DNA of 64,000 nt from Eledone cirrhosa. Taxonomy: Eukaryota. The position numbers were made by a program, and so were the translations under genes. This document shows, in pieces, positions 1 through 62,320 of the stretch (position 1 is the stretch's first letter; the number at the start of each line of letters is the position of its first letter). Location: the NCBI GenBank assembly GCA_964016885.1, contig OZ024743.1, positions 261,764,001-261,828,000 on the forward strand. The letters are read 5' to 3'. The notes below the pieces were generated by a model. The model searched no databases, was not told the DNA's origin, and was given only the letters and a program-made list of their open reading frames with translations.

Positions 1-451
1 TAAGAAGTTAACTTTGCAATTATTAGGTTCTGGGTTCAATTCCACTGTATGGCATCTTATGAGTGACATTGGGTAGACTGAAACTGTTAGAAAGCCCATC
101 AGTTATCAGATGGACTGTACCTCTAATTCAAAGGTTCAACTTTGTCACATTTGCTGATTCTCCCTAAGAATTACGTTATTGTGGAATGTTCAGCTACTTA
201 GACATTAGTTTCATGAGCAGTCTTTCAGTGATTGAACAACTGGAATATTCATCATTGAAAGTGATAGACGTCCTTTTCATTCTATTCCAAGAATTGACAC
301 GTATTAAAAACGGCAGCCATCGGAATTCACCACAGAGTTAAATATATTAAGTTAATCTCTAAATATCTCATCCTTAATATATGATATAAGATTGTGTATG
401 TATGTGTAACTCCTGGTGGACTCGTAGGTAAAGACCCCCATGGGATTTGTA

Positions 452-12607: not shown

Positions 12608-14158
12608 CATCATTATCATCATCATCACCGTTTTACGTCCGTTCTTCCACGCTAGCATGGGTTAAACGGGTTGTCCTGTTGTGGGCAGTGTCTGGTCGGC
12701 TGACCATGCTTTGCTCATACAGGAACTGATCTGGCTTGATTTCTACAGCTGGATGCCCTTCCTAACACCAACCTCATTTACAGTGAGTGCTGGGTGCTTT
12801 TTCGTGGCGCCTACACGTCCACTTTACAGTGTGGGCTGGGTGCTTTTTTGCCTCCACGACCACCTTGCGGTGTGGGGGCATATTGTCTATATGCTTCAGC
12901 TTGTACCCATGGGAGGTCGGGTACTCTGTATTACTGCGTGACGCCAGAAGTCACGGTCGTGTGTCATTGCCTTTGAGAGGTGTAATTGGGTAAGGTCGGC
13001 TTTTATCACCTCATCCCAGGTCATCTTGGGTCTCCCCACTCCGCGGTTTCCATCAACTTCTAGTGCTCTGCACCTTTTTATGCAGCTGTCATCCTTCATA
13101 CGCATCACATGTCCATACCAGCGCAACCGCCTCTCCTGCACACAGCATTTGATTCCTCTTATGCTCAGTCTCTCTCTCAATTCATTTATGCTTTGTCGTT
13201 CACGTATATTACTGTTACACATCCATCGGAGCATGCAGGCTTCGTTTCTCTCTAATCTACGTAAGTCTTCCACCTTCAACGCCCAGGTCTCACTACCATG
13301 CAACATTGCTGTTCGGATACACGCATCATACAGTCTGCCTTTCATTCTGAGGGAGAAGCCTTTTGCAGTTAGCAGTGGTAGTAGTTCCCTAAACTTCTTC
13401 CATCCCGTTCTTACCCTAGTTATTGTACTTTCTGAACACCCACCTCCGCTGCTAATTCGGTCACCTAGGTAACAGAAGCTGTCTACTGTTTCTACAGAGC
13501 CCTCCCAGAGATTGGTGGTACTTGTTTCCTGTGGCTGTTTGCTGCTTGCTGTCTCAGCACAGCTGCTGCATGTGAAGCCTACATTCTTAATTAAGCTTCC
13601 TGAGATCCCGCTACATCTCTTGTGTACCCATTGTTTGCATTTGGGGCAGAGAATGGAGTTCCTACCTACACCTTTCCTACATACTGAGCAAGGCCATTTC
13701 CCTGAGGGGATCTGGGTTCTGTTTTCTCGTCTACTTACAAGGACCTTAGTCTTTGTCATGTTGACTTTGAGACCCTTTCTTTCTAGTCCCTGCTTCCAAG
13801 TTTGGACTTTATTCTCTAGTTCTACCATAGATTCAGCTATGAGTGCGAGGTCATCAGCATACAGGAGTTCCCATGGGCATCCGGTCTTAAACTCCTCCGT
13901 TATTGCCTGCAGGACTATGATGAACAGGAGGGGGCTAAGAACAGAGCCCTGGTGGACCCCAACCTGTACGCTAAATTCCTCGCTATACTCATTGCTAATC
14001 CTAACTTTGCTGACTGCTCCCCTATACATGGCTTGTACCGCTTTCACAAGCCATTCATCTACTCCTAGTTTTCTAAGAGCCCACCAGATTACAGCACGTG
14101 GAACTCTGTCAAAGGCTTTCTCAAGGTCGACAAATGCCAAGTAGAGTGGCTTACTTTT
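12608..14158 (-). mobile_element. RTE LINE family A, 5'-truncated
   Basis: Contains RT ORF 12896-14185, 3' UTR and (CAT)n tail. Near-identical to 16634-20473 and 54213-57495. Confidence 0.95.
12896..14158 (-). pseudogene. RTE reverse transcriptase, C-terminal part (open, N-truncated)
   Basis: Motifs FVDLEKAFDRV, GVHQGSVLSP, LLYADD, YLG. The ORF-track start at 14185 lies in flanking DNA. Confidence 0.93.
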
Positions 14159-14569
14159 ATATACATTAGATAAGCAACATGGCACCAGAGTAGTCGCAAC
14201 TCATTATTTTCCAGCTGAGTGAACTTGAGCAGCATGTCTTGCGCAAGGACACAATGCTCTTCCTGGTTCGGGAATCAAACTCACAACCTCATGATTGTGA
14301 GCCCAATACTCTAACCACTAAGCCACATAGTAGATTAGTATGGAAAGGGTTTAACTGACCTAAATTAACATCTAGTGCTCTATGGTGTGGCAATCTCTTA
14401 TCCTACTAAACCACTACATAGGCTATCTTTAACTAAAGACTTCTCTAAAGTTAGTCACTTATCAGCTGCCTTCTGCCACCAAAACCATCTCCTGTCCCAA
14501 TCTGTTATCACTATAAAAAGTGAATTTATGTCACATTTCTCTTGGCAGTGGTGGCAGTGGTGCGGCTGC

Positions 14570-14890
14570 TGCTCTTTCTTCTTTTTCTTTTTTCTTTCTT
14601 CTTCTTCTCCTCCTTCTCCTCTTCTTTCTCCTTCTCCTTTTCCTTCTTTCTCATTTTCCTTCTCTCTTTCCCTCTTTTCTTTTCTCTTTTTTCTCTTTTT
14701 CCTTCGTTTTTCTTTTTTTTTCTTTTTCCTTTTCTTTTTTCTTTTCTTTTTTCTTTTTTCTTCTTTCTTTTTCTTTTTTCTTTCTTTTTCTTTTCTTTTT
14801 CTTTTTTCTTTCTTTTTCTTTTTTCTTTCTTTTCTTCTTTCTTTCTTTTTCTTTTTTTTCTCTCTCTTTTTTTATCCTCTTCTTCCTCCT
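14570..14890. repeat. Polypyrimidine (T/C) low-complexity tract
   Basis: Direct reading. Confidence 0.95.
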
Positions 14891-15587
14891 TGCAGTTATG
14901 ACTTAAACAGTTTAAAAAAAATTATTATCAGTTGTCAGCTCTCCACTCTTAGAGTATGTTGAGTGATGCTAATGTTGTATGTGTGTGTGTAAATACACAC
15001 ACACACACACACACTTATACACTTATGTACTATTGTTGCTACTACTACTACTACTACTACTCAAGCTAGAAATAGCAGCTAAATTCTTCTCAAATCACAG
15101 ACTCAGTTGTCTTAAAAAAGGGAAGGATACATTGGATAATCTAATCCTAGATACACTTATGCATGAAAAATACTTTTAAAAAGACATGGTCAGTTTTTTA
15201 ACACCTTTGACCATCGGTCTGATGGGTTAGAGCTGAAGCTAAACACACACACACACACACACATATCACTATAGGTTTTTCTTGCTCTGCTAAGTAGAGT
15301 TTCAGTTTGTTTAAAGGTATTTTAGATTTTTCAGGTAATCCTGGAATATTTCAAAAGATATACACACACACACAATTGTTTATATACATACATCTATACA
15401 CACATACACAGATACATAGCTAATTGCAAAAATACACACACACGTGTGTGTATGTATATATATATATGTGTGTGTGTGTATATAAGTATGTGTGTGTATA
15501 TATATATGTATATATGTATGTATGTGTATATATGTGCGTGTGTATGTATGTGTGTGAATATATATATATATATGTGTGTGTATATAT

Positions 15588-15813
15588 ATGATGACCGATG
15601 GATGAAGAAGTGCCAGGAATTGCCAGTTGAAGGAAGACGTGGTAGAGGTAGACCACGAAAAACATGGGCGGAGGTGGTGAGAACAGACCTCAGATCATTG
15701 AAGCTCACGGTGGAGATGACGAGGGACCGTGACGAGTGGAGAGATGCTGTGCTGAATAAGACCCGTCCCACCCTTGCAAGCAGGGAGGAGCGGATGTAAA
15801 ATGATGATGATGA
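15588..15813 (+). mobile_element. RTE LINE (third family) 3' fragment
   Basis: DDRWMKKCQELPVEGRRGRGRPRKTWAEVV...RDRDEWR, (GAT)n tail, flanked by TA-rich microsatellite. Confidence 0.85.
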
Positions 15814-15820
15814 TATATAT

Positions 15821-16068
15821 TAGGGATTGTAACGTCCAGTTGCTGTAGGTTCCCCAGAATGAGCACTCAATGCGTAACTCCCAGTAGGTATATTGGTGTT
15901 GTACTAAGCAGAGTGTAATACTGATACTGTAATTACCATAACAGAAGTCCGATGAGATTTTGATTCCAGATTGATACAGATCGAACCTTGAGCTGATCAA
16001 TCGAGAAACGCGCGTCACACCTCAATAAACGTAATGAAGACCTAACACTTCATCTTTTTTATTATTAG
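15821..16068. mobile_element. (TA)n-embedded hammerhead-type (retrozyme/Penelope-like) element with inversion
   Basis: GAAACGCGCGTC (palindromic stem III + GUC) at 16005-16016 on +. Conserved TT-bulged hairpin at 15864-15915 on -. TA flanks. Confidence 0.6.
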
Positions 16069-16148
16069 TGTATATATATATAAGCGTGAAACTAAAAACC
16101 ATATCATTTGTACTGCCTCTCTGTTTTTTGTTCTCTGTTTATTTATTC

Positions 16149-16179
<31 letters not shown>

Positions 16180-16389
16180 ACGAAGGAAATGTGGTAAGGA
16201 ACCAGGTGGACCATAACGCACCAAAGTACTCAATACTTAGGGTAGTAGAGTGGGTAATAGGAACGAGTAGGACCCCGACGGCTGAGCTCAAGCCGTTTCG
16301 ACGGCTAATTCTGGACTAGTTTTATTCTAGTCCAGAATTAGCCGTCGAAACGGCTTGAGCTCAGTCGTCGGTGTCCTACTCGTTCCTAT
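16180..16389 (-). mobile_element. (TA)n-embedded hammerhead-type element with 63-bp fold-back
   Basis: Arms 16257-16319 and 16327-16389 (2 mismatches) each carry GAAA-CGGCT...AG(C/T)CG-TC. TT-bulged hairpin at 16228-16251. Confidence 0.65.
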
Positions 16390-16395
16390 ATATAT

Positions 16396-16524
16396 AACAT
16401 CCGCTAAGGTGAAACAATTGTTCTCGGTATGGTGAACTAACTGTTGTGTAACCACTTCTACCTAACTCATCCCTTGGACTGAGTGCTCTACCACTACGGA
16501 TATTACCTTCCAGTGTTCCACCAC
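16396..16524 (+). mobile_element. 5'-truncated (TA)n-embedded hammerhead-type element
   Basis: GAAACAATTGTT at 16411-16422. ACTC-aTCC-ctt-GGA-CT-GAGT at 16465-16484. TA on both sides. Confidence 0.45.
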
Positions 16525-16588
16525 TATATATATATATATATATATATGTGTGTGAGTGTGAATATATATGTGCATGCATATGTGTGTG

Positions 16589-16633
<45 letters not shown>

Positions 16634-16635
<2 letters not shown>

Positions 16636-19600
16636 TATCTTAGTTTTATGACGTTATTATTGTTAATATTACTACTGTTTTTCTGCTGTATTATTGATAA
16701 ATTTTCGAAGGTATCTTAGTTCCTATGACGTTATTATTGTTAATATTACTGCTGTTTTAACTTCGGATATTTACCATGCGGTATTCTAATTCTATCGCAT
16801 CTCTCTCGGTTATTTACCATGCGACCCCCAGTGCCTACCTCACAACCCCCCCATCCCACCCACCCCCTCACACCACCATAGCCTATTCGACCAATCAAAC
16901 CTCAGCATGCCATTTCCACGACTGCTGCTACTACTACTTAACTAACTCTCTCCTCCTCTGGCGCAGCCCAACACACCCTGCCATTATCCCACCACCACTG
17001 TTCTTCTAGCCCTCAATTTTCCCACCGTTATGGATGGATGAGCTGAGAATAAATTTGAGCAACTGTGAATCAATAGATGAAATATGAATCTGCGAGCTAC
17101 CAAGCACCCACGTGAAGCGCCAACCCAGAGACCCTCCCCTACGAGTGTCGACAAATGCTCAAAACTCCGAGTTGGTACCATCAATGTAGGCTCAATGAAA
17201 GGAAGAGCAGGAGAAATCGTAGAAATGCTAGAGCGAAAGGAAATTGACGTATGCTGTGTGCAAGAGACAAGATGAAGAGGAGAGTCTGCCAGAGTCCTCG
17301 TAGGAAAAAGTCGGTGCTACAAATTTTTCTGGGTGGGAAATGACGATGGGATGGGTGGTGTAGGTATACTACTAGCTGACAAGTGGGTAGATAAAGTAAT
17401 CTCAGTGTACAGGGTAAACGCAAGAATCATTAAACTCAGACTAGTCCTGAATAAAACAATTACCACAATAATATCAGCTTACACACCCCAATCGGGGCTG
17501 CCAGACGAACTTAAGGATAGGTTTTACGAGTCCCTAATACACACTACTGCTCTAACAGACGACAAGGACTTCCTAATCATCGCAGGAGATTTTAACGGAC
17601 ACGTAGGTAAACACTGCGACGGCTACAATAGAGTACATGGAGGCCATGGGGTTGGCACAAGGAATGAGGAAGGATTCAGACTTCTAGAATTCTGCGACGC
17701 CAATGACATGTCGATATGTTACACAAACTTTAAAAAACCCGACAACCACCTGATCACCTATAGATCAGGGGAGCACTCTAGTCAGTTAGATTTTATCCTC
17801 ATCAGAGGACATGACAGATGGACGGTCGTAAACACAAAAGCCTTCCCTAGTGAGGAATGTACATCCCAACATAGCTTAGTTGTCAGCGACCTCACGGTCA
17901 GAACTAGACGAGCCCTGAAACAGAGGCCAACCTGGAGAAGAAAGATCTGGAAGCTGAAAGTCCCCTCAACCAGTAACAGAATTAAAAATATCTTACTCAA
18001 CGCCTACGACAGTAAAGAAGAACAGATAGAGACATTTAATGTAGAAGAGAACTGGGAGTTCCTAAAAAATAATTTACTAGAGGCGATGGACGAGGTCTGT
18101 GGCTGGAGTAAGACCTCAAGCAGGAGGAGAGTGACTTGGTGGTGGAACAATAAGGTAGATGAAGCAGTCAAGGCCAAGAGACAGGCATGGAAAGAATGGA
18201 AGAACGGGGGGAGCAGGGTACATTACATAGAGACCAAGAGGGAAGCTAGGCGACAAGTATACTTAACTAGGAGGGAAGCAGAGGATAGAAAATTCAAGCA
18301 TGTTTTACAACGTGAGGACCAGAAACAGGAGGTATTCAAGATTGCGAGGCAGTGTGTCAGAGATAGTTGTGATGTCATTGGAGAGAAGTGTATCCGGAAT
18401 GATAAAGGTGAGCTTGCCCTCACAAGTGCTGAGAAGAAAGATACATGGAGGAGTCATTATGATAGATTACTAAATGAGGAGAATGCATGGGAAGAAGAGA
18501 CCCTACCCCAAGTAGACCCTATAGAGGGACCAGCAGTACAAGTCAGCGGCAGCGTAGTAAGTAAGGCAATCAGAGATATGAAGATGGGGAAGGCAACCGG
18601 TCCATCGGGTATAGCTGCCGAGATGCTGAACGCATCTGGGTCTGTAGGTCACACTATAACCACACGTATCGTTAACCAGGTAATACTAGAAGGGGCCATA
18701 CCAAAAGATTGGTGCAGTAGCATCATTGTCAACTGCTACAAAGGTAAAGGCGATGCACTAGATAGAGGAAACTATAGAGGTATAAAGTTGATGGACCAGG
18801 TCATGAAAGTAACAGAAAGAGTTATAGCACAGCTGATTAGGGACCGGGTGAAAATAGACGAGATGCAATTTGGGTTTGTACCAGGAAGAGGCACCACTGA
18901 TGCCCTCTTCCTTGTGAGGCAATTACAGGAAAAGTACCTAGCTAAAAGTAAGCCACTCTACTTGGCATTTGTCAACCTTGAGAAAGCCTTTGACAGAGTT
19001 CCACGTGCTGTAATCTGGTGGGCTCTTAGAAAACTAGGAGTAGATGAATGGCTTGTGAAAGCGGTACAAGCCATGTATAGGGGAGCAGTCAGCAAAGTTA
19101 GGATTAGCAATGAGTATAGCGAGGAATTTAGCGTACAGGTTGGGGTCCACCAGGGCTCTGTTCTTAGCCCTCTCCTGTTCATCATAGTCCTGCAGGCAAT
19201 AACGGAGGAGTTTAAGACCGGATGCCCATGAGTTTAAGACCGGATGCACTAGAGAATAAATTCCAAACCTGGAAGCAGGGACTAGAAAGAAAGGGTCTCA
19301 AAGTCAACATGACAAAGACTAAGGTCCTTGTAAGTAGACGAGAAAACAGAACCCAGATCCCCTCAGGGAAATGGCCTTGCTCAGTATGTAGGAAAGGTGT
19401 AGGTAGGAACTCCATTCTCTGCCCCAAATGCAAACAATGGGTACACAAGAGATGTAGCGGGATCTCAGGAAGCTTAATTAAGAATGTAGGCTTCACATGC
19501 AGCAGCTGTGCTGAGACAGCAAGCAGCAAACAGCCACAGGAAACAAGTACCACCAATCTCTGGGAGGGCTCTGTAGAAACAGTAGACAGCTTCTGTTACC

Positions 19601-20473
19601 TAGGTGACCGAATTAGCAACGGAGGTGGGTGTTCAGAAAGTGCAATAACTAGGGTAAGAACGGGATGGAAGAAGTTTAGGGAACTACTACCACTGCTAGC
19701 TGCAAAAGGCTTCTCCCTCAGAATGAAAGGCAGACTGTATGATGCGTGTATCCGAACAGCGATGTTGCATGGTAGCGAGACCTGGGTGCTGAACGTGGAA
19801 GACTTACGTAGATTAGAGAGAAACGAAGCCTGCATGCTCCGATGGATGTGTAACAATAATATACGTGAACGACAAAGCATAAATGAATTGAGAGAGAGAC
19901 TGAGCATAAGAGGAATCAAATGCTGTGTGCAGGAGAGGCGGTTGCGCTGGTATGGACATGTGATGCGTATGAAGGATGACAGCTGCATAAAAAGGTGCAG
20001 AGCACTAGAAGTTGATGGAAACCGCGGAGTGGGGAGACCCAAGATGACCTGGGATGAGGTGATAAAAGCTGACCTTACCCAATTACACCTCTCAAAGACA
20101 ATGACACACGACCGTGACTTCTGGCGTCACGCAGTAATACAGAGTACCCGACCTCCCATGGGTACCAGCTGAAACATATAGACAATATGCCCCCACGCCC
20201 CCCACCGCAAGGTGGTCGTAGAGGTGCCACGGAAAAAAAGCACCCAGCCCACACTGTAAAGTGGACGTGTAGGCGCCACGGAAAAAAGTACCCAGCACTC
20301 ACTGTAAATGAGGTTGGTGTTAGGAAGGGCATCCAGCTGTAGAAATCAAGCCAAATCAGTTCCTGTATGAGCAAGGCATGGTCAGCCGACCAGACACTGC
20401 CCACAACAGGACAACCCTTCTAACCCATGCTAGCATGGAAGAACGGATGTAAAACGGTGATGATGATGATGAT
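16634..20473 (+). mobile_element. RTE LINE family A, near full-length
   Basis: APE endonuclease (TINVG, QETR, SAYTPQ, GDFNGH, SQHSLV) plus RT, 3' UTR and (GAT)n tail. (TA)n on both sides. Confidence 0.96.
17084..20172 (+). pseudogene. RTE APE-RT polyprotein, inactivated
   Basis: Premature TGA at 17273-17275. The YADD region is deleted and the frame shifts at ~19230. Confidence 0.93.
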
Positions 20474-29639: not shown

Positions 29640-32600
29640 CTCTCTCGTATTTTCCAAAACAAATCTTGTATTTTTGTTATTGCTTGTTAAATACGAAAGT
29701 TTTTGGCGTATTTTAGTAAACAAATCTTGTAGTTTTGTTATCGCTTGTTAAATACGAGGATCTCACTTAAACCTATTCTTCTCGCTAACAACTCAACACC
29801 CCTCCCTCCCGCCCCCACGCACCACCATTATTATTACGTGGACCAATCATAAGCCAGAGGCCTATACTATCGCTTACCTGGTCGCCTTCGATATGTAGGA
29901 TGGAAGGACTACGGAGTTCCGGAGAGTTGAAGAGAGAAAAATCTGGACGCTCAGCGACAATGCCAAAGATAAAGACAAACACACCTCGTGGACGAGAATG
30001 CGAGCATTCCTCTTTGTTTCGGCCGCGGATGGCTAACATAACCCCATCTCCCCCCGCTCCCACCCTCCAAACGCAATCCAAAACTTCAGAGTTGGTACCT
30101 TGAATGTAGGCACCTTAAAGGGTCGCTCTAACGAGGTTGTAGAAATGCTTGAACGTAAGGAGGTCGATGTTTGTTGTATTCAAGAGACCAGGTGGAGGGG
30201 TGGATCTGCTAGATTCATTGTGGGTAAAAAACGATGCTATAAGCTTTTCTGGATGGGAAATGACAATGGGCTGGGTGGAGTAGGAATCATGGTAGCAGAA
30301 AAGTGGGCAGATAAGATAATAGACGTAAATAGAGTGAACGACAGAATAATTAAAATAAGACTTGTCCTCAATAGAACTACGGTGACAGTAATATCTGCGT
30401 ACGCACCCCAATCCGGACTGCCCAGCACTATAAAAGACAGATTCTATGAGACACTGATGCTCACTACTTCCCAAATAACCGACAGTGACTATATAATTAT
30501 TGCAGGCGACCTAAACGGTCACGTTGGACAACATTGTGACGGCTACGACGAAATCCATGGAGGCTATGGGTTTGGTACTAGAAATGAGGAAGGCTCCAGA
30601 ATCCTGGAATTCTGTGACGCAAATAACCTAACTATCTGCAACACTAACTTCAAAAAATGAGACAATCACTTGATCACCTACAGTTCAGGGGAACATACCA
30701 GCCAGGTAGATTATATCCTTACCAGAAGACGTGACAGAGTGACTGTTGTAAACACTAAATCCCTCCCCCATGAAGAATGCACCTCCCAACATAGACTGAT
30801 AATTAGCGACCTCATAGTCAGGACGAGACGTACTCGACAGCAGAAGAGGACTATCCTCAGGAGAAAAATATGGAAGCTAAAGGACCCCACAGCCAAAAAT
30901 AAATTTCAAAGCATATTACTTGATGCTTTCGACAGTAAGGAAGAGCAATTAGAGTCGTACAAGGTAGAGGAACAGTGGGAATTCCTGAAAGCAAACCTGC
31001 TGACGGCGGCAGACGAAGTCTGTGGCTGGAGCAGGCCTGTAGGCAGGAGGAGAGTAACAGGCAATGTGTCAAGAAAAACAGCGATATTGTCGGGGAGGAC
31101 GGCGTACTTGCCATCACCGACGCTGATAAGAAGGTAGCTTGGAAGTGTCACTATGAAAGGCTACTAAATGAGGAGAATAAATGGGAGAAAGATAGTCTGC
31201 CCCAAATCGATCCAATAGAAGGACCAGCGGTGCAAGTTAAAGGTAGTATAATAAGTAAGGCAATCAAAGATATGAAGACAGGCAAGGCAGCTGGGCCTCC
31301 AGAGATAGTTGCTGAGATGTTGAAGGCATCTGGTATGGTGGGACACACTACTGTCACCCGTATAGTTAACCAAGTCATACAGGATGGGGTTGTTCCGAAG
31401 GACTGGCGTAGCAGCATCATCGTTAACTGTTATAAGGGTAAAGGAGATGCCCTAGATAGGAGTAACTATAGAGGCATTAAATTAATCGACCAGGTCATGA
31501 AGGTCACGGAAAAAGTAATAGCGCAACTAATCAGAGAGCGAATTGATCTAGATGAAATGCAGTTCGGGTTTGTGTCAGGAAAAAGTACCACAGACGCTCT
31601 TTTCATTGTACGACAACTACAGGAGAAGTACCTAGCTAAAAGTAAACCCCTATACTTAGCTTTTGTTGACTTGGAGAAAGCCTTTGACAGAGTCCCCCGC
31701 TCCATTATCTGGTGGGCTCTTAGAAAACTAGGTGTTGATGAATGGCTTGTGAGAGCTATACAAGCCATGTATAAAGAAACAGTCAGCAAGGTTAGAATTA
31801 ACAACGAATATAGTGAAGAGTTTAGTGTAAAAGTTGGTGTTCATCAGGGCTCTGTTCTTAGCCCCCTACTATTTATTATTGCCCTCCAGGCTATAACAGT
31901 GGAGTTCAAGACCGGCTGCCCATGGGAACTCCTATACGCAGATGATCTAACGCTCATAGCTGAATCAATGGCCGAGCTAGAGAAGAAATTCCAAACATGG
32001 AAGCACGGCCTAGAATCAAAAGGCCTTAAAATTAACCTGGCTAAGACTAAAGTTCTAGTTTGTAAGAAAGAAAATAAGGCGGCGGTCCCCTCCGGGAAGT
32101 GGCCATGCTCAGTGTGTAGGAAAGGCGTAGGTAGAAACTCCATTTTGTGTCCCAAATGCAAAGTATGGGTGCATAAAAGATGTAGTGGGATCACAGATAA
32201 GCTAACTAAGAACATAGATTTTACATGTGGCCGGTGTTCTGGGGTAATAAGTAGCAGCAAGTGCCCACAAAATACTAGCTCTTTCAACTGCGCAGAGGGT
32301 TCTATAGAAATAGTGGACAGCTTCCGTTACCTGGGTGACAAAATCAGTAGTGGGGGAGGGTGCTCTGAAAGTACAGTAGCTAGAGTCAGAACTGGGTGGA
32401 AAAAGTTCAGAGAGCTTATACCTCTACTAGCCGCTAAAGGGTTCTCCCTAAAAATGAAAGGCAGGCTGTATGAGGCCTGCATACGAACAGCAATGTTGCA
32501 TGGCAGTGAGACTTGGGCAGTGTGTGCAGAGGATATACGCAGACTAGAGAGAAACGAAGCTTGCATGCTCCGCTGGATGTGTAATAGTAATATACGTGAA

Positions 32601-33273
32601 CGGCAAAGCATAAACGAACTAAGGAAAAAATTAGAAATAAGAGGGATCAGACGTTGTTTATTTGAGAGAAGGCTACGTTGGTATGGTCACGTGATGCACA
32701 TGAAGGACGATAGCTGTATAACAAAGTGCAGGGCAATAAAGATAGACGGTAGCCACGGAATAGGCAGACCCAGAAAAACCTGGGACGAGCTGATAAATTC
32801 CGACCTCACACACTTACACCTCTCCAAGACAATGTCACTGGACCGAGACCTTTGGCGGTACTCAGTAATAGAGAAGACCCGCTTTACCTAAATACAAAGT
32901 AAAACCTACTACAGTCAGTAGGCATCTCTAACAAAATACACCCCGCGTCACCACCCCCACCCCACCCACACCGCCCCTTTCAATGTAAAGTTATGTTGGT
33001 GCCACAACATCCAGGCCGAAACAAATGAGATCGTGTAGGTGTCACGTCAAAAAAACACACAGTTCACGCTGTAATGTGGGCGTGTAGGCAACACGGTAAA
33101 AACCTCCCAGCCCCACACTGTAAATGTGGTTGGTGTTGGGAAGGGCATCCAGCTGTAGAAAACCCGCCAGATAGTCCTATGCGAGCAAGATAATCACTCT
33201 TGCTTCAAGTGGGAAACCCCCGTCCAAACCCATGCAAGCGTGGAACACGGACATTAAACGTTGATGATGATGA
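29640..33273 (+). mobile_element. RTE LINE family B, near full-length (5' boundary approximate)
   Basis: APE domain (30100-30820), RT (YADD), 3' UTR and (GAT)n tail. Confidence 0.94.
30100..32891 (+). pseudogene. RTE APE-RT polyprotein, inactivated
   Basis: TGA at 30658-30660. An internal deletion with frameshift at ~31058 removes the WWWN...KIA segment present in family A. Confidence 0.92.
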
Positions 33274-33480
33274 ATGAATAATATCAATTAGGTTAATTTC
33301 TATAGATTTTCTGCTGGTATACAATGTCATTTCTGCTATTATGATAGTAATTCGACAGATTTAAACAAATATTTTCTAAATTGTTTTCATGTTTGTATAT
33401 ATTGAAGAGTTTTGGCTGTTTTTTAGATATTTTGTTCAATGGCTTGTCTGTATATCATATTTACATATATTACATAAGGA

Positions 33481-35092
33481 TAGCTTTTGTCGACTTGGAG
33501 AAAGCCTTCGACAGAGTCCCCCGTTCCATTATCTGGTGGGCTCTTAGAAAACTAGGTGTTGACGAATGGCTTGTGAGAGCTATACAAGCCATGTATAAAG
33601 AAACAGTCAGCAAGGTTAGAATTAACAACGAATATAGTGAAGAGTTTAGCGTAAAAGTTGGTGTCCATCAGGGCTCTGTTCTTAGCCCCCTACTATTTAT
33701 TATTGCCCTTCAGGCTATAACAGAGGAGTTCAAGACCAGCTGCCCATGGGAACTCCTATACGCAGATGATCTAACGCTCATAGCTGAATCAATGGCCGAG
33801 CTAGAGAAGAATTCCAAACATAGAAGCATGGCCTAGAATCAAAAGGCCTTAAAATTAACCTGGCTAAGACTAAAGTTCTAGTTTGTAGGAAAGAAAATAA
33901 GGTGCCGGTCCCTTCCGGGAAATGGCCATGCTCAGTGTGTAGGAAAGGCGTAGGTAGAAACTCCATTTTATGTCCCAAATGCAAAGTATGGGTGCATAAA
34001 AGATGTAGTGGGATCACAGGTAAGCTAACTAAGAACATAGATTTTACATGTGGCCGGTGCTCTGGTGCAATAAGTAGCAGCAAGTGCCCACAAAATACTA
34101 GCTCTTTCAATTGCGCAGCGGGTTCTATAGAAATAGTGGACAGCTTCCGTTACCTGGGTGACAAAATCAGCAGTGGGGGAAGGTGCTCTGAAAGTACAGT
34201 AGCCAGAGTCAGAACTGGATGGAAAAAGTTCAGAGAGCTTATACCACTATTAGCCGCTAAAGGGTTCTCCCTAAAAATGAAAGGCAGGTTGTATGTTGCC
34301 TGCATACGGACAGCAATGTTGCATGGCAGTGAGACCTGGACATTGTGTGCAGAGGATATACGCAGACTAGAGAGGAACGAAGCTTGCATGCTCCGCTGGA
34401 TGTGTAATAGTAATATACGTGAACGGCAAATCATAAACGAACTAAGGAAAAAATTAGAAATAAGAGGGATCAGATGTTGTTTACTCAAGAGAAGGCTACG
34501 TTGGTATGGTTACGTGATGCGCATGAAAGACGACAGCTGTATAACAAAGTGCAGGGCAATAAAGATAGACGGTAGCCACGGAGTAGGCAGACCCAGAAAA
34601 ACCTGGGACGAGCTGATAAATTCCGACCTCACACACTTACACCTCTCCAAGACAATGTCACTGGACCAAGACCTTTGGTGGTACTCAGTAATAGAGAAGA
34701 CCCGCCTTACCTAAATACAAAGTAAAAACCTACTACAGTCAGTAGGCATCTCTAACCCCCCCCCCCCCCCCCCCCCAATCCACTCCGCCCCTTTCAATGT
34801 AAAGTTATGTTGGTGCCACAACATCCAGGCCGAAACAAATGACGTTGTGTAGGTGTCACGACAAAAAAAACAGTCCACGCTGTAATGTGGCCATGTAGGC
34901 AACACAGTAAAAACCTCCCAGCCCCACACTGTAAATGTGGTTGGTGTTAGGAAGGGCATCCAGCTGTAGAAAACCCACCAGACAGTCCTACGCGAGCAAG
35001 ACAACCACTCTTGCCTCAAGTGGGAAAACTCCCATCCAAACCCATGCAAGCGTGGAACATGGACGTTAAACGATGATCATGATGTTGATGAT
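33481..35092 (+). mobile_element. RTE LINE family B, 5'-truncated, frameshifted
   Basis: AFVDLEKAFDRV...YADD, frameshift and stop near 33810-33822, same 3' UTR and tail. Confidence 0.94.
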
Positions 35093-52450: not shown

Positions 52451-52615
52451 CAAATCTGATGTCCCATGCTTGGTGGGAAATAGGATGCATGGCTGTCTTT
52501 CTCTTTTACTGGGTTTTATGGGTAGGAGAGCTTTCTAACTTTGTGTATGTGTGTGTAAATATATCCATCTATCTATCTATCTATCTAATATATATCTATA
52601 TATATATATAGGTAT

Positions 52616-54047
52616 TAGAATGATCGAGTATCGAAAAATCGGCGCACGAGTTCACGATAAACAAAATTCGAAATGAGCGGCAGAGGGCTCAATAATTCAG
52701 ATGAATCAGAGCTATAACTATCGTTAAAATACCGTCACACATAGAACAAGTCTAAAATCAACCATACGATAAAAAAAATCGATAATAGAAGATTCGGGAC
52801 AATCAGATAAAAAGTATCAATAAATCAATAAATCAATAATTTAAATGAATGTAAAATCATACCCGGACCCGCTAGAAAGGTGTTAAATCTAGCTTCTTGG
52901 GTTTCTGTAAATCCTTAGACTGTACTCTATCAGCTCACATATAAATATATAAGACTTCTAGAATAAGCGGACTGGAAATTTACTTTTTCAACGAGCTTCG
53001 TCCTAGCGGATAAGAGGCTAACTACAAGCAAAATACGCACATGGAATCCGGCAAGGGAGATAACCTCTACATCCGCGAAAACTATTCGAGGAAATGTGGA
53101 AATACACATATCGAATAAAAGTGCTCAATAGACATGTTAAAATAAAACAGGAGCTATTCATCACTCAATAGAATCGACAAAAAATGAGCAATAAAATTAA
53201 CTGGTGGATAGCTATGTCCAGAGCTAAAAATATTAGAATGATCGAGTATCGAAAAATCGGCGCACGAGTTCACGATAAACAAAATTCGAAATGAGCGGCA
53301 GAGGGCTCAATAATTCAGATGAATCAGAGCTATAACTATCGTTAAAATACCGCCACACATAGAACAAGTCTAAAATCAACCATACGATAAAAAAATCGAT
53401 AATAGAAGATTCGGGACAATCAGATAAAAAATATCAATAAATCAATAAATCAATAATTTAAATGAATGTAAAATCATACCCGGACCCGCTAGAAAGGTGT
53501 TAAATCTAGCTTCTTGGGTTTCTGTAAATCCTTAGACTGTACTCTATCAGCTCACATATAAATATATAAGACTTCTAGAATAAGCGGACTGGAAATTTAC
53601 TTTTTCAACGAGCTTCGTCCTAGCGGATAAGAGGCTAACTACAAGCAAAATACGCACATGGAATCCGGCAAGGGAGATAACCTCTACATCCGCGAAAACT
53701 ATTCGAGGAAATGTGGAAATACACATATCGAATAAAAGTGCTCAATAGACATGTTAAAATAAAACAGGAGCTATTCATCACTCAATAGAATCGACAAAAA
53801 ATGAGCAATAAAATTAACTGGTGGATAGCTATGTCCAGAGCTAAAAATATTAGAATGATCGAGTATCGAAAAATCGGCGCACGAGTTCACGATAAACAAA
53901 ATTCGAAATGAGCGGCAGAGGGCTCAATAATTCAGATGAATCAGAGCTATAACTATCGTTAAAATACCGTCACACATAGAACAAGTCTAAAATCAACCAT
54001 ACGATAAAAAAATCGATAATAGAAGATTCGGGACAATCAGATAAAAA
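52616..54047 (-). mobile_element. Tandem 617/618-bp non-coding element (~2.3 units) with 16-bp TSD, retrozyme-like
   Basis: Units start at 52613, 53231 and 53848. Flanked by atatatatataggtat at 52600-52615 and 54048-54063. TT-bulged hairpin at 52687-52712. Confidence 0.8.
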
Positions 54048-54159
54048 ATATATATATAGGTATACAAGTTACCGTTTTCAGTTACTCTGTAAATGCCTGA
54101 AATAAATCCTATTGTATTGCTAATTTGTGTAAATCTTTATTTATCTATTTGTATAAATG

Positions 54160-54216: not shown

Positions 54217-57200
54217 TCATCATCATCATCATCATCACCGTTTTACGTCCGTTCTTCCACGCTAGCATGGGTTAGACGGGTTGTCCTGTTGTGGGCAGTG
54301 TCTGGTCGGCTGACCATGCCTTGCTCATACAGGAACTGATCTGGCTTGATTTCTACAGCTGGATGCCCTTCCTAACACCAACCTCATTTACAGTGAGTGC
54401 TGGGTGCTTTTTCGTGGCGCCTACACGTCCACTTTACAGTGTGGGCTGGGTGCTTTTTTGCCATGGCACCTCCACGACCACCTTGCGGTGGGGGGAGTGG
54501 GGGCATATTGTTTATATGCTTCAGCATGTACCCATGGGAGGTCGGGTACCCTGTATTACTGCGTGACGCCAGAAGTCACGGTCGTGTGTCATTGTCTTTG
54601 AGAGGTGTAGTTGGGTAAGGTCGGCTTTTATCACCTCATCCCAAGTCATCTTGGGTCTCCCCACTCCGCGGTTTCCATCAACTTCTAGTGCTCTGCACAT
54701 TTTTATGCAGCTGTCATCCTTCATACGCATCACATGTCCATACCAGCGTAACCGCCTCTCCTGCACGCAGCATTTGATTCCTCTTATGCTCAGTCTCTCT
54801 CTCAATTCCTTTATGCTTTGTCGTTCACGTATATTACTGTTACACATCCATCGGAGCATGCAGGCTTCGTTTCTCTCTAATCTACGTAAGTCTTCCACCC
54901 AGGTCTCACTACCATGCAACATCGCTGTTCGGATACACGCATCATACAATCTGCCTTTCATTCTGAGGGAGAAGCCTTTTGCAGCTAGCAGTGGTAGTAG
55001 TTCCCTAAACTTCTTCCATCCCGTTCTTACCCTAATTATTGTACTTTCTGAGCACCCACCTCCGTTGCTAATTCGGTCACCTAGGTAGCAGAAGCTGTCT
55101 ACTGTTTCTACAGGGCCCTCCCAGAGATTGGTGGTACTTGTTTCCTGTGGCTGTTTGCTGCTTGCTGTCTCAGCACAGCTGCTGCATGTGAAGCCTACAT
55201 TCTTAATTAAGCTTCCTGAGATCCCGCTACATCTCTTGTGTACCCATTGTTTGCATTTGGGGCAGAGAATGGAGTTCCTACCTACACCTTTCCTACATAC
55301 TGAGCAAGGCCATTTCCCTGAGGGGATCTGGGTTCTGTTTTCTCGTCTACTTACAAGGACCTTAGTCTTTGTCATGTTGACTTTGAGGCCCTTTCTCTCT
55401 AGTCCCTGCTTCCAGGTTTGGAATTTATTCTCTAGTTCTACCATAGATTCAGCTATGAGTGCGAGGTCATCAGCATACAGGAGTTCCCATGGGCATCTGG
55501 TCTTAAACTCCTCCGTTATTGCCTGCAGGACTATGATGAACAGGAGAGGGCTAAGAACAGAGCCCTGGTGGACCCCAACCTGTACGCTAAATTCCTCGCT
55601 ATACTCATTGCTAATCCTAACTTTGCTGACTGCTCCCCTATACATGGCTTGTACCGCTTTCACAAGCCATTCATCTACTCCTAGTTTTCTAAGAGCCCAC
55701 CAGATTACAGCACGTGGAACTCTGTCAAAGGCTTTCTCAAGGTCGACAAATGCCAAGTAGAGTGGCTTACTTTTAGCTAGGTACTTTTCCTGTAATTGCC
55801 TCACAAGGAAGAGGGCATCAGTGGTGCCTCTCCCTGGTACAAACCCAAATTGCATCTCGTCTATATTCACCCGGTCCCTAATCAGCTGTGCTATAACTCT
55901 TTCTGTTACTTTCATGACCTGGTCCATCAACTTTATACCTCTATAGTTTCCTCTATCTAGTGCATCGCCTTTACCTTTGTAGCAGTTGACAATGATGCTA
56001 CTGCACCAATCTTTTGGTATGGCCCCTTCTAGTATTACCTGGTTAACGATACATGTGGTTATAGTGTGACCTACAGACCCAGATGCCTTCAGCATCTCGG
56101 CAGCTATACCCGATGGACCGGTTGCCTTCCCCATCTTCATATCTCTGATTGCCTTACTTACTACGCTGCCGCTGACTTTTACTGCTGGTCCCTCTATAGG
56201 GTCTACATGGGATAGGGTCTCTTCTTCCCATGCATTCTCCTCATTTAGTAATCTATCATAATGACTCTTCCATGCATCTTTCTTCTCAGCACTTGTGAGG
56301 GCAAGCTCACCTTTATCATTCCGGATACACTTCTCTCCAATGACATCACAACTATCTCTGACACACTGCCTCGCAATCTTGAATACCTCCTGTTTCTGGT
56401 CCTCACGTTGTAAAACATGCTTGAATTTTCTATCCTCTGCTTCCCTCCTAGCTAAGTATACTTGTCGCCTAGCTTCCCTCTTGGTCTCTATGTAATGTAC
56501 CCTGCTCCCCCCGTTCTTCCATTCTTTCCATGCCTGTCTCTTGGCCTTGACTGCTTCATCTACCTTATTGTTCCACCACCAAGTCACTCTCCTCCTGCTT
56601 GAGGTCTTACTCCAGCCACAAACCTCATCCGTCGCCTCTAGTAAGTTATTTTTTAGGAACTCCCAGTTCTCTTCTACGTTAAATGTCTCTATCTGTTCTT
56701 CTTTACTGTCGTAGGCGTTGAGTAAAATATCTTTAAATCTGTTACTGGTTGAGGGGACTTTCAGCTTTCAGATCTTTCTTCTCCAGGTTGGCCTCTGTTT
56801 CAGGGCTCGTCTAGTTCTGACCGTGAGGTCGCTGACAACTAAGCTATGTTGGGATGTACATTCCTCACTAGGGAAGGCTTTTGTGTTTACGACCGTCCAT
56901 CTGTCACGTCCTCTGATGAGGATAAAATCTAACTGACTAGAGTGCTCCCCTGATCTATAGGTGATCAGGTGGTTGTCGGGTTTTTTAAAGTTTGTGTTAC
57001 ATATCGACATGTCATTGGCGTCGCAGAATTCTAGAAGTCTGAATCCTTCCTCATTCCTTGTGCCAACTCCATGGCCTCCATGTACTCTATTGAAGCCGTC
57101 GCAGTGTTTACCTACGTGTCCGTTAAAATCTCCTGCAATGATTAGGAAGTCCTTGTCGTCTGTTAGAGCAGTAGTGTGTATTAGGGACTCGTAAAACCTA

Positions 57201-57491
57201 TCCTTAAGTTCGTCTGGCAGCCCCGATTGGGGTGCGTAAGCTGATATTATTGTTGTAATTGTCTTATTCAGGACTAGTCTGAGTTTAATGATTCTTGCAT
57301 TTACCCTGTACACTGAGATTACTTTATCTACCCACTTGTCAGCTAGTAGTATACCTACACCACCCATCCCATCGTCATTTCCCACCCAGAAAAATTTGTA
57401 GCACTGGCTTTTTCCTACAAGGACTCTAGCAGACCCTCCTCTCCATCTAGTCTCTTGCACACAGCATACATCAACTTCCTTTCGCTCTAGC

Positions 57492-57495
<4 letters not shown>
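54213..57495 (-). mobile_element. RTE LINE family A, slightly 5'-truncated, inserted in (TA)n
   Basis: APE plus RT, (CAT)n tail, (TA)n on both sides. Confidence 0.96.
54521..57493 (-). pseudogene. RTE APE-RT polyprotein with one nonsense codon
   Basis: ORFs 56768-57493 and 54521-56587 are in the same frame, separated by TGA (W codon) at 56768-56770. 3-aa deletion in ETW--VED. Confidence 0.93.
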
Positions 57496-58541: not shown

Positions 58542-59468
58542 GAACCAGCAGTACTAGTGTGGATGCCTTGCAGTTTGTTGTGGTACCTGCAACATTATTG
58601 TGGCACCAGCAGCACTATTGTGGTTGCTTTGCAGTTTGTTGTGGAACCAGCAGTAGTATTGTGGTTGCTTTGCAGTTTGTTGTGGCACCAACAGCACTAT
58701 TGTGGTTGCTTTGCAGTTTGTTGTGGCACCAGCAGCACTATTGTGGTTGCTTTGCAGTTTGTTGTGGCACCAACAGCACTATTGTGGTTGCTTTGCAGTT
58801 TGTTGTGGCACCAACAGCACTATTGTGGTTGCTTTGCAGTTTGTTGTGGCACCAGCAGCACTATTGTGGTTGCTTTGCAGTTTGTTGTGGCACCAGCAGC
58901 ACTATTGTGGTTGCTTTGCAGTTTGTTGTGGCACCAACAGCACTATTGTGGTTGCTTTGCAGTTTGTTGTGGCACCAGCAGCACTATTGTGGTTGCTTTG
59001 CAGTTTGTTGTGGCACCAACAGCACTATTGTGGTTGCTTTGCAGTTTGTTGTGGCACCAGCAGCACTATTGTGGTTGCTTTGCAGTTTGTTGTGGCACCA
59101 GCAGCACTATTGTGGTTGCTTTGCAGTTTGTTGTGGCACCAACAGCACTATTGTGGTTGCTTTGCAGTTTGTTGTGGCACCAGCAGTAGTATTGTGGTTG
59201 CTTTGCAGTTTGTTGTGGCACCATCAGCACTATTGTGGTTGCTTTGCAGTTTGTTGTGACACCAGCAGTAATATTGTGGTTGCTTTGCAGTTTGTTGTGA
59301 CACCAGCAGTAATATTGTGGTTGCTTTGCAGTTTATTGTGGCACCAGTAGTACTATTGTGGTTGCTTTGCAGTTTGTTGTGGCACCAGCAGTAGTATTGT
59401 GGTTGCTTTGCAGTTTATTGTGGCACCAGTAGTACTATTGTGGTTGCTTTGCAGTTTATTGTGACACC
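58542..59468. repeat. 41-bp minisatellite, ~22 copies
   Basis: Unit gcaccagcagcactattgtggttgctttgcagtttgttgtg. Variants accumulate at both ends. Confidence 0.95.
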
Positions 59469-60076: not shown

Positions 60077-60141
<65 letters not shown>

Positions 60142-60221
60142 GATAAGCAGAACAAGTAAAATTCAATCAATTTTTCAAAATACATTAAAAAATATAATAT
60201 AAATATTTACCTCTTCTAGTG

Positions 60222-60303
60222 GCCCTTACTGATCAGTTTCGCTTTGTAAAACCTCATAAATCCGATGGATTCATGATGGAAAACCAAAGCTCATCAGAGA
60301 AGC
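60222..60303 (-). ncRNA. Type I hammerhead ribozyme (unit 1)
   Basis: Reverse complement of 61806-61887. TCATCAG at 60291-60297. Confidence 0.82.
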
Positions 60304-60697
60304 ATTTTCCCATCCTAGGGCTAAACGTCCCAGGAACGACAAAATATACAACCTCCTGCCAGCTAATAAAGGTCGTAAAAGTGACCCGTATGTAAACTGG
60401 ACCGAAGTAAAAGCGGGAAAATCAAAGACTTGCTGTCTACAATTACTACTAAAGAAATAGCAGCCTAGTAAAGCAACAGATTTGTTCTCAACGGACGGAG
60501 AAAAAGGTATAAGTTAATATGTCCAGGGATACTAGGTACCCCTAGAAATACATAGGTTGTCTATGATTCAGGGTTGTTCAATGGTGTTAATTTGATACAC
60601 CAGAACTTTAATATTAAGATAAGCAGAACAAGTAAAATTCAATCAATTTTTCAAAATACATTAAAAAATATAATATAAATATTTACCTCTTCTAGTG

Positions 60698-60779
60698 GCC
60701 CTTACTGATCAGTTTCGCTTTGTAAAACCTCATAAATCCGATGGATTCATGATGGAAAACCAAAGCTCATCAGAGAAGC
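60698..60779 (-). ncRNA. Type I hammerhead ribozyme (unit 2)
   Basis: TCATCAG at 60767-60773, same sequence as unit 1. Confidence 0.82.
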
Positions 60780-61182
60780 ATTTTCCCATCCTAGGGCTAA
60801 ACGTCCCAGGAACGACAAAATATACAACCTCCTGCCAGCTAATAAAGGTCTGAAAGGTCGTAAAAGTGACCCGTATGTAAACTGGACCGAAGTAAAAGCG
60901 GGAAAATCAAAGACTTGCTGTCTACAATTACTACTAAAGAAATAGCAGCCTAGTAAAGCAACAGATTTGTTCTCAACGGACGGAGAAAAAGGTATAAGTT
61001 AATATGTCCAGGGATACTAGGTACCCCTAGAAATACATAGGTTGTCTATGATTCAGGGTTGTTCAATGGTGTTAATTTGATACACCAGAACTTTAATATT
61101 AAGATAAGCAGAACAAGTAAAATTCAATCAATTTTTCAAAATACATTAAAAAATATAATATAAATATTTACCTCTTCTAGTG

Positions 61183-61265
61183 GCCCTTACTGATCAGTTT
61201 CGCTTTGTAAAACCTCATAAATCCGATGGATTTTATGATGGAAAACCAAAGCTCATCAGAGAAGC
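61183..61265 (-). ncRNA. Type I hammerhead ribozyme (unit 3)
   Basis: TCATCAG at 61253-61259. Small change in distal stem II. Confidence 0.8.
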
Positions 61266-61805
61266 ATTTTCCCATCCTAGGGCTAAACGTCCCAGGAACG
61301 ACAAAATATACAACCTCCTGCCAGCTAATAAAGGTCTGAAAGGTCGTAAAAGTGACCCGTATGTAAACTGGACCGAAGTAAAAGCGGGAAAATCAAAGAC
61401 TTGCTGTCTACAATTACTACTAAAGAAATAGCAGCCTAGTAAAGCAACAGATTTGTTCTCAACGGACGGAGAAAAAGGTATAAGTTAATATGTCCAGGGA
61501 TACTAGGTACCCCTAGAAATACATAGGTTGTCTATGATTCAGGGTTGTTCAATGGTGTTAATTTGATACACCAGAACTTTAATATTAAGATACCTTTTTC
61601 TCCGTCCGTTGAGAACAAATCTGTTGCTTTACTAGGCTGCTATTTCTTTAGTAGTAATTGTAGACAGCAAGTCTTTGATTTTCCCGCTTTTACTTCGGTC
61701 CAGTTTACATACGGGTCACTTTTACGACCTTTCAGACCTTTATTAGCTGGCAGGAGGTTGTATATTTTGTCGTTCCTGGGACGTTTAGCCCTAGGATGGG
61801 AAAAT

Positions 61806-61887
61806 GCTTCTCTGATGAGCTTTGGTTTTCCATCATGAATCCATCGGATTTATGAGGTTTTACAAAGCGAAACTGATCAGTAAGGGC
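61806..61887 (+). ncRNA. Type I hammerhead ribozyme (inverted unit)
   Basis: gcttct-CTGATGA(61812-18)-GCTTTG...tcatgaatcc-atc-ggatttatga...CAAAGC-GAAA(61869-72)-CTGATCAG-TA|agggc. Intact core, palindromic stem III, predicted GUA cleavage after 61882. Confidence 0.85.
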
Positions 61888-62073
61888 CACTAGAAGAGGT
61901 AAATATTTATATTATATTTTTTAATGTATTTTGAAAAATTGATTGAATTTTACTTGTTCTGCTTATCTTAATATTAAAGTTCTGGTGTATCAAATTAACA
62001 CCATTGAACAACCCTGAATCATAGACAACCTATGTATTTCTAGGGGTACCTAGTATCCCTGGACATATTAACT

Positions 62074-62110: not shown

Positions 62111-62320
62111 ATGAGCCCCAGGTTCACTTGGGGGTAACCACAGTAAGTAAGGTACTCAATACATTAGTAGAGTGTAAAACTCAAATTTAATATAGAAATG
62201 GCTTCTACAGGACTAGAACTGTTTCATTCAAAGGAAGGCATCAGGAAAACCATTTCCTGGTGATTTCCTTTGAATGAAACAGTTCTAGTCCTGTAGAAGC
62301 CATTTCTATATTAAATTTGA
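62111..62320. mobile_element. Hammerhead-type element with 140-bp fold-back
   Basis: Inverted repeat 62181-62320. tttc-CTGGTGA-tttcctttgaat-GAAA-CAG-ttctagtc-CTG-TA|gaag on +; the other arm has core CTGATGC. TT-bulged hairpin at 62154-62173. Confidence 0.7.

What the first reader, a model, noticed from the sequence alone, without database searches (positions are those of the whole stretch)
52600..54063. 2.3 turns of a 617-bp non-coding unit inside a 16-bp target-site duplication
Seen: near-identical CpG-rich units, no ORF of 60 aa or more, TSD atatatatataggtat, and the UU-bulge hairpin ~70 nt from the left (3') end, which ends in TAATA microhomology with the target. Inference: a single TPRT event on a circular or multimeric RNA, i.e. 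a retrozyme-like insertion. The unit is larger than the metazoan retrozyme monomers I recall.
Basis: partly seen in the sequence, partly recalled or inferred. Interest (0 to 1): 0.8.

Follow-up and report, generated by a model that had tools for sequence, protein, structure and literature searches.

The report
Retrozyme with hidden variant hammerhead
This is one copy of a widespread non-coding 617-base repeat that carries a predicted self-cutting RNA with an unusual core; its insertion pattern suggests it is likely pasted into TA repeats by a borrowed Penelope-type enzyme that would start copying just before a small bulged hairpin, so it is a new family of a known kind with a testable start signal.

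Summary
Observation confirmed: 2.33 turns of a 617/618-bp unit, a 16-bp target duplication, CpG o/e 1.36, longest ORF 59 aa. Copies share one end at (TA)n and vary at the other; 54 of 84 are under one turn and none runs on into a larger element.

19 of 84 variable ends fall in the 35 nt before its predicted cut (6.6% expected, p=1.7e-6). The only internal junction seen lies exactly at the cut.

There are two bulged hairpins. The missed one starts 6 nt past the main end. A Hydra-clade Penelope element has the same hairpin after both its ends; a Neptune element does not.

Verdict: animal retrozyme, likely Hydra-mobilised by internal priming. Cleavage, RNA and circles are not shown; circle versus multimer is unresolved. 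The scan found similar families and the Hydra hairpin before, on other DNA of this genome.

The parts
52600..52615 (.). Target-site duplication, left copy (last 3 nt shared with the unit start)
54048..54063 (.). Target-site duplication, right copy (first 4 nt also fit the unit)
52613..53230 (-). Turn 1 (618 bp); 52613 is the family's fixed end, the inferred main start of reverse transcription
53231..53847 (-). Turn 2 (617 bp)
53848..54047 (-). Partial turn 3 (200 bp), the variable 5' end; stops 48-52 nt short of the next predicted cut and has no ribozyme
53478..53613 (-). Predicted type I hammerhead, copy 2: stem I 53613-53609 with 53482-53478; core UUGAAAA 53608-53602; helix II 53600-53593 with 53531-53524; GAAAC 53522-53518; GUC with C17 at 53483
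52861..52996 (-). Predicted type I hammerhead, copy 1, C17 at 52866; cutting at both copies would free a 617-nt monomer
53123..53224 (-). Hairpin H2 (GCUC, 7-bp stem, long insert, UU bulge, GAGC), starting 6 nt 3' of the main-start position; candidate handle for the reverse transcriptase
53740..53841 (-). Hairpin H2, second copy
52687..52712 (-).

Best explanation
The locus is one insertion of a non-coding tandem element with a fixed end in a TA-rich target, and it likely works as a non-LTR retrozyme: a predicted variant hammerhead would cut tandem transcripts to 617-nt units, which a Penelope-like (probably Hydra-clade) RT-endonuclease would copy into (TA)n. Inferred steps: (1) a copy longer than one turn is transcribed on the minus strand; (2) the hammerhead cuts part of the RNA after GUC; (3) the protein binds bulged hairpin H2, nicks a TA tract and primes through about 3 nt of TA pairing some 6 nt 5' of the hairpin, inside the RNA; (4) on a cut linear RNA it runs off after at most 252 nt, or after one or more turns plus 252, which gives the pile-up of ends; on a circle or uncut multimer it continues; (5) rarely a second cDNA starts before H1 and gives an inverted arm. 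Shown: anatomy, end distributions, motif conservation. Inferred: transcription, cleavage, partner and template shape (partner Hydra about 0.65; cleavage in vivo about 0.65; circle about 0.5).
For: Fixed end: in the 109 matches all but two begin at query position 1-2 (both exceptions are at one locus), and 30 of 37 insertions chosen without regard to flank abut four or more TA. An exact TA-anchored 31-mer occurs 189 times, control 0 (some are internal junctions). Length: of 84 insertions, 54 are under or at one turn, 21 have 1-2 turns and 9 have more, up to 14.6. Ribozyme: the hammerhead fold is the unconstrained minimum-energy fold of the 136-nt segment. Among 95 distinct segments the core reads UUGAAGA 55, UUGAUAA 13, UUGAUGA 6, UUGAAAA 3, not parsed 18. 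Family D (648 bp) keeps core, helix II, GAAACC and GGUC, with a G-C to A-U swap in stem I. Ends: 19 of 84 variable ends lie in unit 218-252 against 6.6% exposure, p=1.7e-6, best of about 550 sliding windows, next independent window p=0.05; equally A+T-rich bins hold 1 and 3 ends. The one internal junction found joins C17 exactly. Hairpin: it follows 7 of 10 fixed ends tested, background 108 of 20000. H2 was called in 214 of 221 anchored copies (overlapping loci count twice). The predicted minor start gave 3 of 3 hits as inverted arms, control 0. [quoted passage not shown]
Against: Stem I pairs only in the isolated segment (0.65-0.81) and is displaced with 20 nt or more of context (0.00-0.18). 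Most copies have a U3·G8 wobble and an A·A mismatch at the base of helix II, which I found tested in no paper read. Within the close subfamilies there is no two-sided change and shuffles equal the observed score. No variable end reaches position 252 exactly (the highest in the window is 248), and 8 more lie in 253-287. The junction at C17 is a single case; the genome-wide pattern gave 2 hits, one of them a point mutant. The hairpin descriptor was drawn from these same cases; it misses one 485-family end and the 459-family end, and a third match in the unit (position 561) showed no use. There is no alignable homology to 31 Hydra-family or 40 GIY-YIG loci. Both Hydra copies with ORFs that I read are broken. 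There is no A-to-G editing excess.
Confidence: 0.75

Rival explanations
1. Same element, but the template is a linear, partly cut read-through multimer; no circle exists, and long arrays grow afterwards by DNA duplication.
For: The pile-up before the cut recurs in later turns (11 of the 19 ends lie beyond the first turn), which needs linear ends or re-opened circles. The 14.6-turn array repeats with a period of 6 and the 8.7-turn array with 2-4. In vitro, uncut RNA was the main substrate of a Poseidon PLE (PMC11167929).
Against: Turns within an insertion agree at 2701 of 2729 family-polymorphic sites, and 26 private variants are shared by all turns. This fits one template read repeatedly, but a homogeneous unsampled master fits too.
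Confidence: 0.4
2. The hammerhead is a conserved but non-cutting relic, and the end pile-up comes from RT stalling at the foot of helix III or from TA microhomology.
For: Variant core, and stem I is sequestered in context. 8 of 9 Xenopus retrozyme dimers did not cut in vitro. No reads ended at the PAc cut site.
Against: Core and helices are conserved in distant family D while the inserts have diverged. One junction sits at C17. Bins before other stable hairpins show hazards of 0.065-0.074 against 0.17.
Confidence: 0.3
3. The mobilising partner is a Neptune-clade PLE rather than Hydra.
For: A Neptune family with a 938-codon open frame ends in the same 8 nt at (TA)n and carries a U3-A8 hammerhead. 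The GIY-YIG search gave 10,596 candidates; nearly all of those I read were Neptune-like.
Against: No bulged hairpin follows the Neptune ends tested. The shared 8 nt are mostly the TA-like priming site.
Confidence: 0.2
4. An ordinary satellite, or dead terminal fragments of a longer element, amplified at the DNA level.
For: Higher-order periods in long arrays; 54 of 84 copies are under or at one turn.
Against: One fixed end, dispersal over many chromosomes, insertion into (TA)n, a 16-bp duplication here, and no shared continuation beyond the variable ends.
Confidence: 0.04

Closest known systems
Animal non-LTR retrozymes (Cervera and de la Pena 2020, PMC7229834, parts 2-4 of 6 read; Li, Clavereau and Pollet 2026, bioRxiv 10.64898/2026.07.22.740005, parts 1-3 of 5 read)
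   Same: Non-coding tandem units, one type I hammerhead per unit, GC under 50%, TSD longer than 4 bp, co-existing PLEs.
   Different: 617 nt against 170-400 in the first paper (within 51-972 in the second). U3-based core, a 79-nt helix II region and a long helix III, missed by Rfam. Stem I is predicted to be blocked in the circle, unlike most metazoan cases. No alignable homology to a PLE terminal repeat was found. RNA not shown.
Hydra-clade Penelope-like elements (Craig et al. 2021, PMC8557442, section 11 and passages read; supplement rows list Hydra-1_Obim with (TA)n preference)
   Same: (TA)n target, fixed 3' end, partial tandems, inverted arms with a second end; the same GCUC-stem-UU-GAGC hairpin 7-8 nt after both ends of the Hydra copy here.
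   Different: No ORF, no alignable sequence beyond the hairpin, a different hammerhead.
PLE hammerheads with U3-A8 core (Cervera and de la Pena 2014, PMC4209133, parts 1-2 of 4 read; Perreault et al. 2011, PMC3088659, section 8 and passages read)
   Same: U3-A8 covariation, an extra or mismatched base at the foot of helix II, a short helix I.
   Different: U3·G8 is the majority form here; helix III is long and stable rather than minimal and palindromic.
Poseidon PAc of Anolis (Frangieh et al. 2024, PMC11167929, parts 1-2 of 4 read)
   Same: Internal initiation, two start sites, needed RNA lying 3' of the start, AT-rich target.
   Different: PAc is autonomous, its starts are 30-40 nt apart (about 100 here) inside an AC-rich stem-loop, and no in vivo ends were seen at its ribozyme cut.

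Membership tests
Animal non-LTR retrozyme | Non-coding head-to-tail repeats, dispersed | tested here: met
Animal non-LTR retrozyme | A type I hammerhead in each full unit | tested here: met
   By sequence and fold, with a variant core; a canonical CUGANGA scan finds none
Animal non-LTR retrozyme | GC under 50% and TSD longer than 4 bp | tested here: met
   35% GC and 16 bp; most other copies sit in pure (TA)n where a TSD cannot be read
Animal non-LTR retrozyme | No LTR, PBS or PPT | not tested
   No LTR pair is apparent; PBS and PPT were not searched
Animal non-LTR retrozyme | Self-cleavage of the transcript | not testable with these tools
   Indirect only: end pile-up and one junction
Animal non-LTR retrozyme | Expressed as linear and circular monomer RNA | tested here: inconclusive
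   No RNA holder listed
Type I hammerhead ribozyme | Core N3-U4-G5-A6-N7-N8-A9 with a 3-8 pair; G12-A13-A14; A15.1-U16.1; H17 | tested here: met
   U3-A8 in both window copies; U3·G8 in 8 of 11 aligned copies. Canonical C3-G8 is not present
Type I hammerhead ribozyme | Three helices around the core | tested here: inconclusive
   Minimum-energy fold in isolation; stem I displaced in context; compensatory change only against family D
Type I hammerhead ribozyme | Paired 10.1-11.1 next to the core | tested here: not met
   An A·A mismatch precedes the G-C pair; U·U here is reported in PMC3088659
Type I hammerhead ribozyme | Loop 1-loop 2 tertiary contact | not tested
   Not looked for
PLE-mobilised non-autonomous element (Hydra) | (TA)n target, fixed 3' end, variable 5' end, partial tandems | tested here: met
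PLE-mobilised non-autonomous element (Hydra) | Inverted arm with a second fixed end | tested here: met
   3 cases genome-wide; none among the 84 sampled insertions
PLE-mobilised non-autonomous element (Hydra) | Alignable 3' similarity to an autonomous element | tested here: not met
   None in 71 PLE-related loci; only the hairpin motif is shared

The most novel reading that the evidence does not exclude
A two-nucleotide-bulge hairpin is the start signal of Hydra-clade Penelope RT and positions priming 5-8 nt upstream whatever the size of its loop (7 to 92 nt). This family has captured two such signals plus an active U3·G8 hammerhead, and its genomic 5' ends record in vivo ribozyme cuts and round-the-circle copying of an animal retrozyme.
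Probability: 0.35. Interest if true: 0.75.

Novelty: new variant of a known kind. Interest (0 to 1): 0.52.

Why it matters
The papers read propose, but do not show, which enzyme moves animal retrozymes and how a circle without a 3' end is primed. This family names a candidate enzyme clade, a candidate RNA handle and exact start and cut positions, all open to a simple in vitro test. It also shows that canonical hammerhead screens miss abundant families with a U3 core and long helix inserts.

Tried and rejected
Rfam found no ribozyme in either tandem family. CUGAUAGA (52933-52926) first looked like the core; I rejected it because it cannot form stem I, it lies inside the helix II insert and family D lacks it. 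I first took the 459-bp tandem in L052 as a Neptune terminal repeat, then rejected that because it is a separate (TA)n-flanked insertion. The editing test was null: private A>G 17 against T>C 41 on the RNA strand. The circle-versus-multimer test was inconclusive. Covariation within close subfamilies was null. The control junction pattern gave 0 hits and the third-hairpin start pattern 0 hits; neither proves absence. No RNA holder was listed. Contigs of three runs showed the family but no joint across the insertion, with the repeat junction skipped, so the empty allele is open. Rows dropped before the 84-insertion count: 6 of 90 loci (three repeats of one insertion, one segmental twin, two picked from the full-length list). 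That sample is the first 100 of 189 pattern hits, contigs C1-C4 only, and not all 100 were fetched. In one search one of the 37 flanks (L014) was mis-scored by the script and left as a miss. Literature searches that returned no description of this family or of a bulged-hairpin start signal: (open-access library only; bioRxiv supplements unseen, which may list related units).

Full report
Observation. The window holds 618 + 617 + 200 bp of one unit (52613-54047) between two exact copies of a 16-mer (52600-52615 and 54048-54063). The turns are 99.5% alike, CpG o/e is 1.36 against 0.41 for the window, and the longest ATG ORF is 59 aa. The fixed junction shares 3 nt with the target and the other 4 nt. 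The insertion lies in a microsatellite tract between two RTE-like LINE pieces (the RTE label is recalled).

Family. The genome (3.0 Gb) gave 2301 candidate places, of which 40 were scored and 109 matches listed. Nearly all begin at the same base and stop at variable points. A 605-bp subfamily (86% alike) and a distant 648-bp family D (global score 243 against 156 ± 14 for shuffles) behave alike. 30 of 37 fixed ends chosen without regard to flank abut (TA)4 or more. I sampled by the fixed end (189 exact hits) and kept 84 insertions of 90 loci. Of these 54 are under or at one turn, 21 have 1-2 turns, 6 have 2-3, and three have 3.7, 8.7 and 14.6. Every copy that passes position 617 re-enters position 1. 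The 150 nt beyond the variable ends give only 5 weak pairwise matches, not aligned at the junctions. The copies are therefore not fragments of a longer element.

Ribozyme. Rfam and a CUGANGA scan found nothing. Comparison of subfamilies showed a type I hammerhead on the minus strand: a 5-bp stem I, core UUGANRA, an A·A mismatch, an 8-bp helix II with a long insert, GAAAC, a long helix III and GUC with C17 at 53483 and 52866. Position 7 varies freely, and position 8 is A in the window and G in most copies. U3-A8 is a described natural variant (PMC4209133; PMC3088659); I saw no test of U3·G8. The fold is the unconstrained minimum for the 136-nt segment, but stem I is displaced once flanking RNA is added. 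Close subfamilies keep 97.4% of pairs without two-sided changes, no better than shuffles. The real covariation comes from family D, which keeps core, helix II and cut site, swaps G-C for A-U in stem I and has diverged inserts.

Footprints of cutting. The predicted cut lies 252 nt from the fixed end. 19 of 84 variable ends fall in the 35 nt before it, against 6.6% exposure (p=1.7e-6; next independent window p=0.05). Bins of similar A+T content hold 1 and 3 ends. Ends were called by BLAST and can shift a few bases in TA-rich sequence; none reaches 252 exactly, and 8 fall just beyond it. The only internal junction in all family loci joins C17 to position 159 with no shared base; it is a single case. 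Two of the three inversion joints also lie at 231-247. This fits an RT running off the 5' end of cut RNA. Stalling at helix III is the main alternative. The window's own 5' end (200-204) is outside the peak.

Start signal. It was called in 214 of 221 anchored copies and is kept with compensatory changes in family D. If such hairpins set the start, H1 should mark a second start near position 105. A genome search gave 3 hits (control 0), all inverted second arms beginning at 101-106. A third descriptor match at position 561 showed no use. The bulge is not always UU: GC, UC and UA occur in H1-type hairpins.

Partner. Neptune-type PLEs are abundant. One family ends in the same 8 nt and has a U3-A8 hammerhead, but no such hairpin follows its end. 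Earlier scan notes pointed to the Hydra clade, and I tested that lead. [quoted passage not shown] Its main end abuts (TA)n in 19 of 27 matches, 5 of the rest being internal read-throughs. Both of its ends are followed 7-8 nt later by the hairpin. Overall 7 of 10 tested ends fit, against a background of 0.54%, with the caveat that the descriptor came from these cases. No alignable homology links the unit to any PLE locus read. Internal initiation with needed RNA 3' of the start is shown for a Poseidon PLE (PMC11167929).

Circle or multimer. 56 of 84 copies read past the first cut site, so the template must often be circular, uncut or re-entered. Turns of one insertion agree at 2701 of 2729 polymorphic sites and differ by 0.7%, against 6% for the median other insertion, but the nearest other insertion is also 0.7% away (53 insertions). 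Long arrays show higher-order periods, and there is no editing bias. No RNA run was listed. The question is open.

Verdict. This is an animal non-LTR retrozyme-like element with an atypical hammerhead, likely mobilised by a Hydra-clade PLE through internal priming. The kind is known and PLE dependence has been proposed (PMC7229834; bioRxiv 10.64898/2026.07.22.740005). The paired start hairpins, the U3·G8 core and the end pile-up at the cut were not found in the searches. The scan has noted other U3-A8 families, two-armed insertions and the Hydra hairpin elsewhere in this genome; a sequence look-up for this unit found nothing. The repeat landscape suggests a cephalopod-type genome, which is inference only.

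Noticed in passing
window 60135-62053: A second retrozyme-like family: 3 turns of 485 bp plus an inverted arm, with a canonical CUGAUGA hammerhead, long helix II and palindromic loop 3. The two outer ends are different fixed points, both at (TA)n; 1891 candidate places in the genome.
   Followed up: partly
L142:1735-2345, L213-L232: Family D, a 648-bp distant homologue with the same ribozyme and both hairpins; 2927 candidate places.
   Followed up: partly
L051, L056, L060 (G000:C1:145867500-145877400 and others): A Neptune-type PLE with a 938-codon open frame, long terminal repeats and a minimal U3-A8 hammerhead about 130 nt before its end.
   Followed up: partly
L258, L259: Hydra-clade PLE copies with broken ORFs and a hammerhead-like motif with a CCGAAGA (U4C) core, read.
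   Followed up: partly
L052:6700-7640: A 459-bp tandem hammerhead element about 70% like the 485-bp family, flanked by (TA)n.
   Followed up: no
L167, L166: Arrays of 14.6 and 8.7 turns with higher-order periods of 6 and 2-4 units.
   Followed up: partly
L071, L089, L142, L149: Different families stack in the same (TA)n tract, one inserting into the TA tail of another.
   Followed up: no
window 12896-20172, 30037-34714, 54521-57493: Several RTE-like LINE copies with long RT and endonuclease frames (label recalled).
   Followed up: no
window 58598-59468: A 41-bp minisatellite, 21 copies, 95% matches.
   Followed up: no
window 62186-62314: A long near-perfect inverted repeat; it resembles a fold-back copy of a small hammerhead-bearing repeat seen in L053, L056, L060 and L069.
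   Followed up: no
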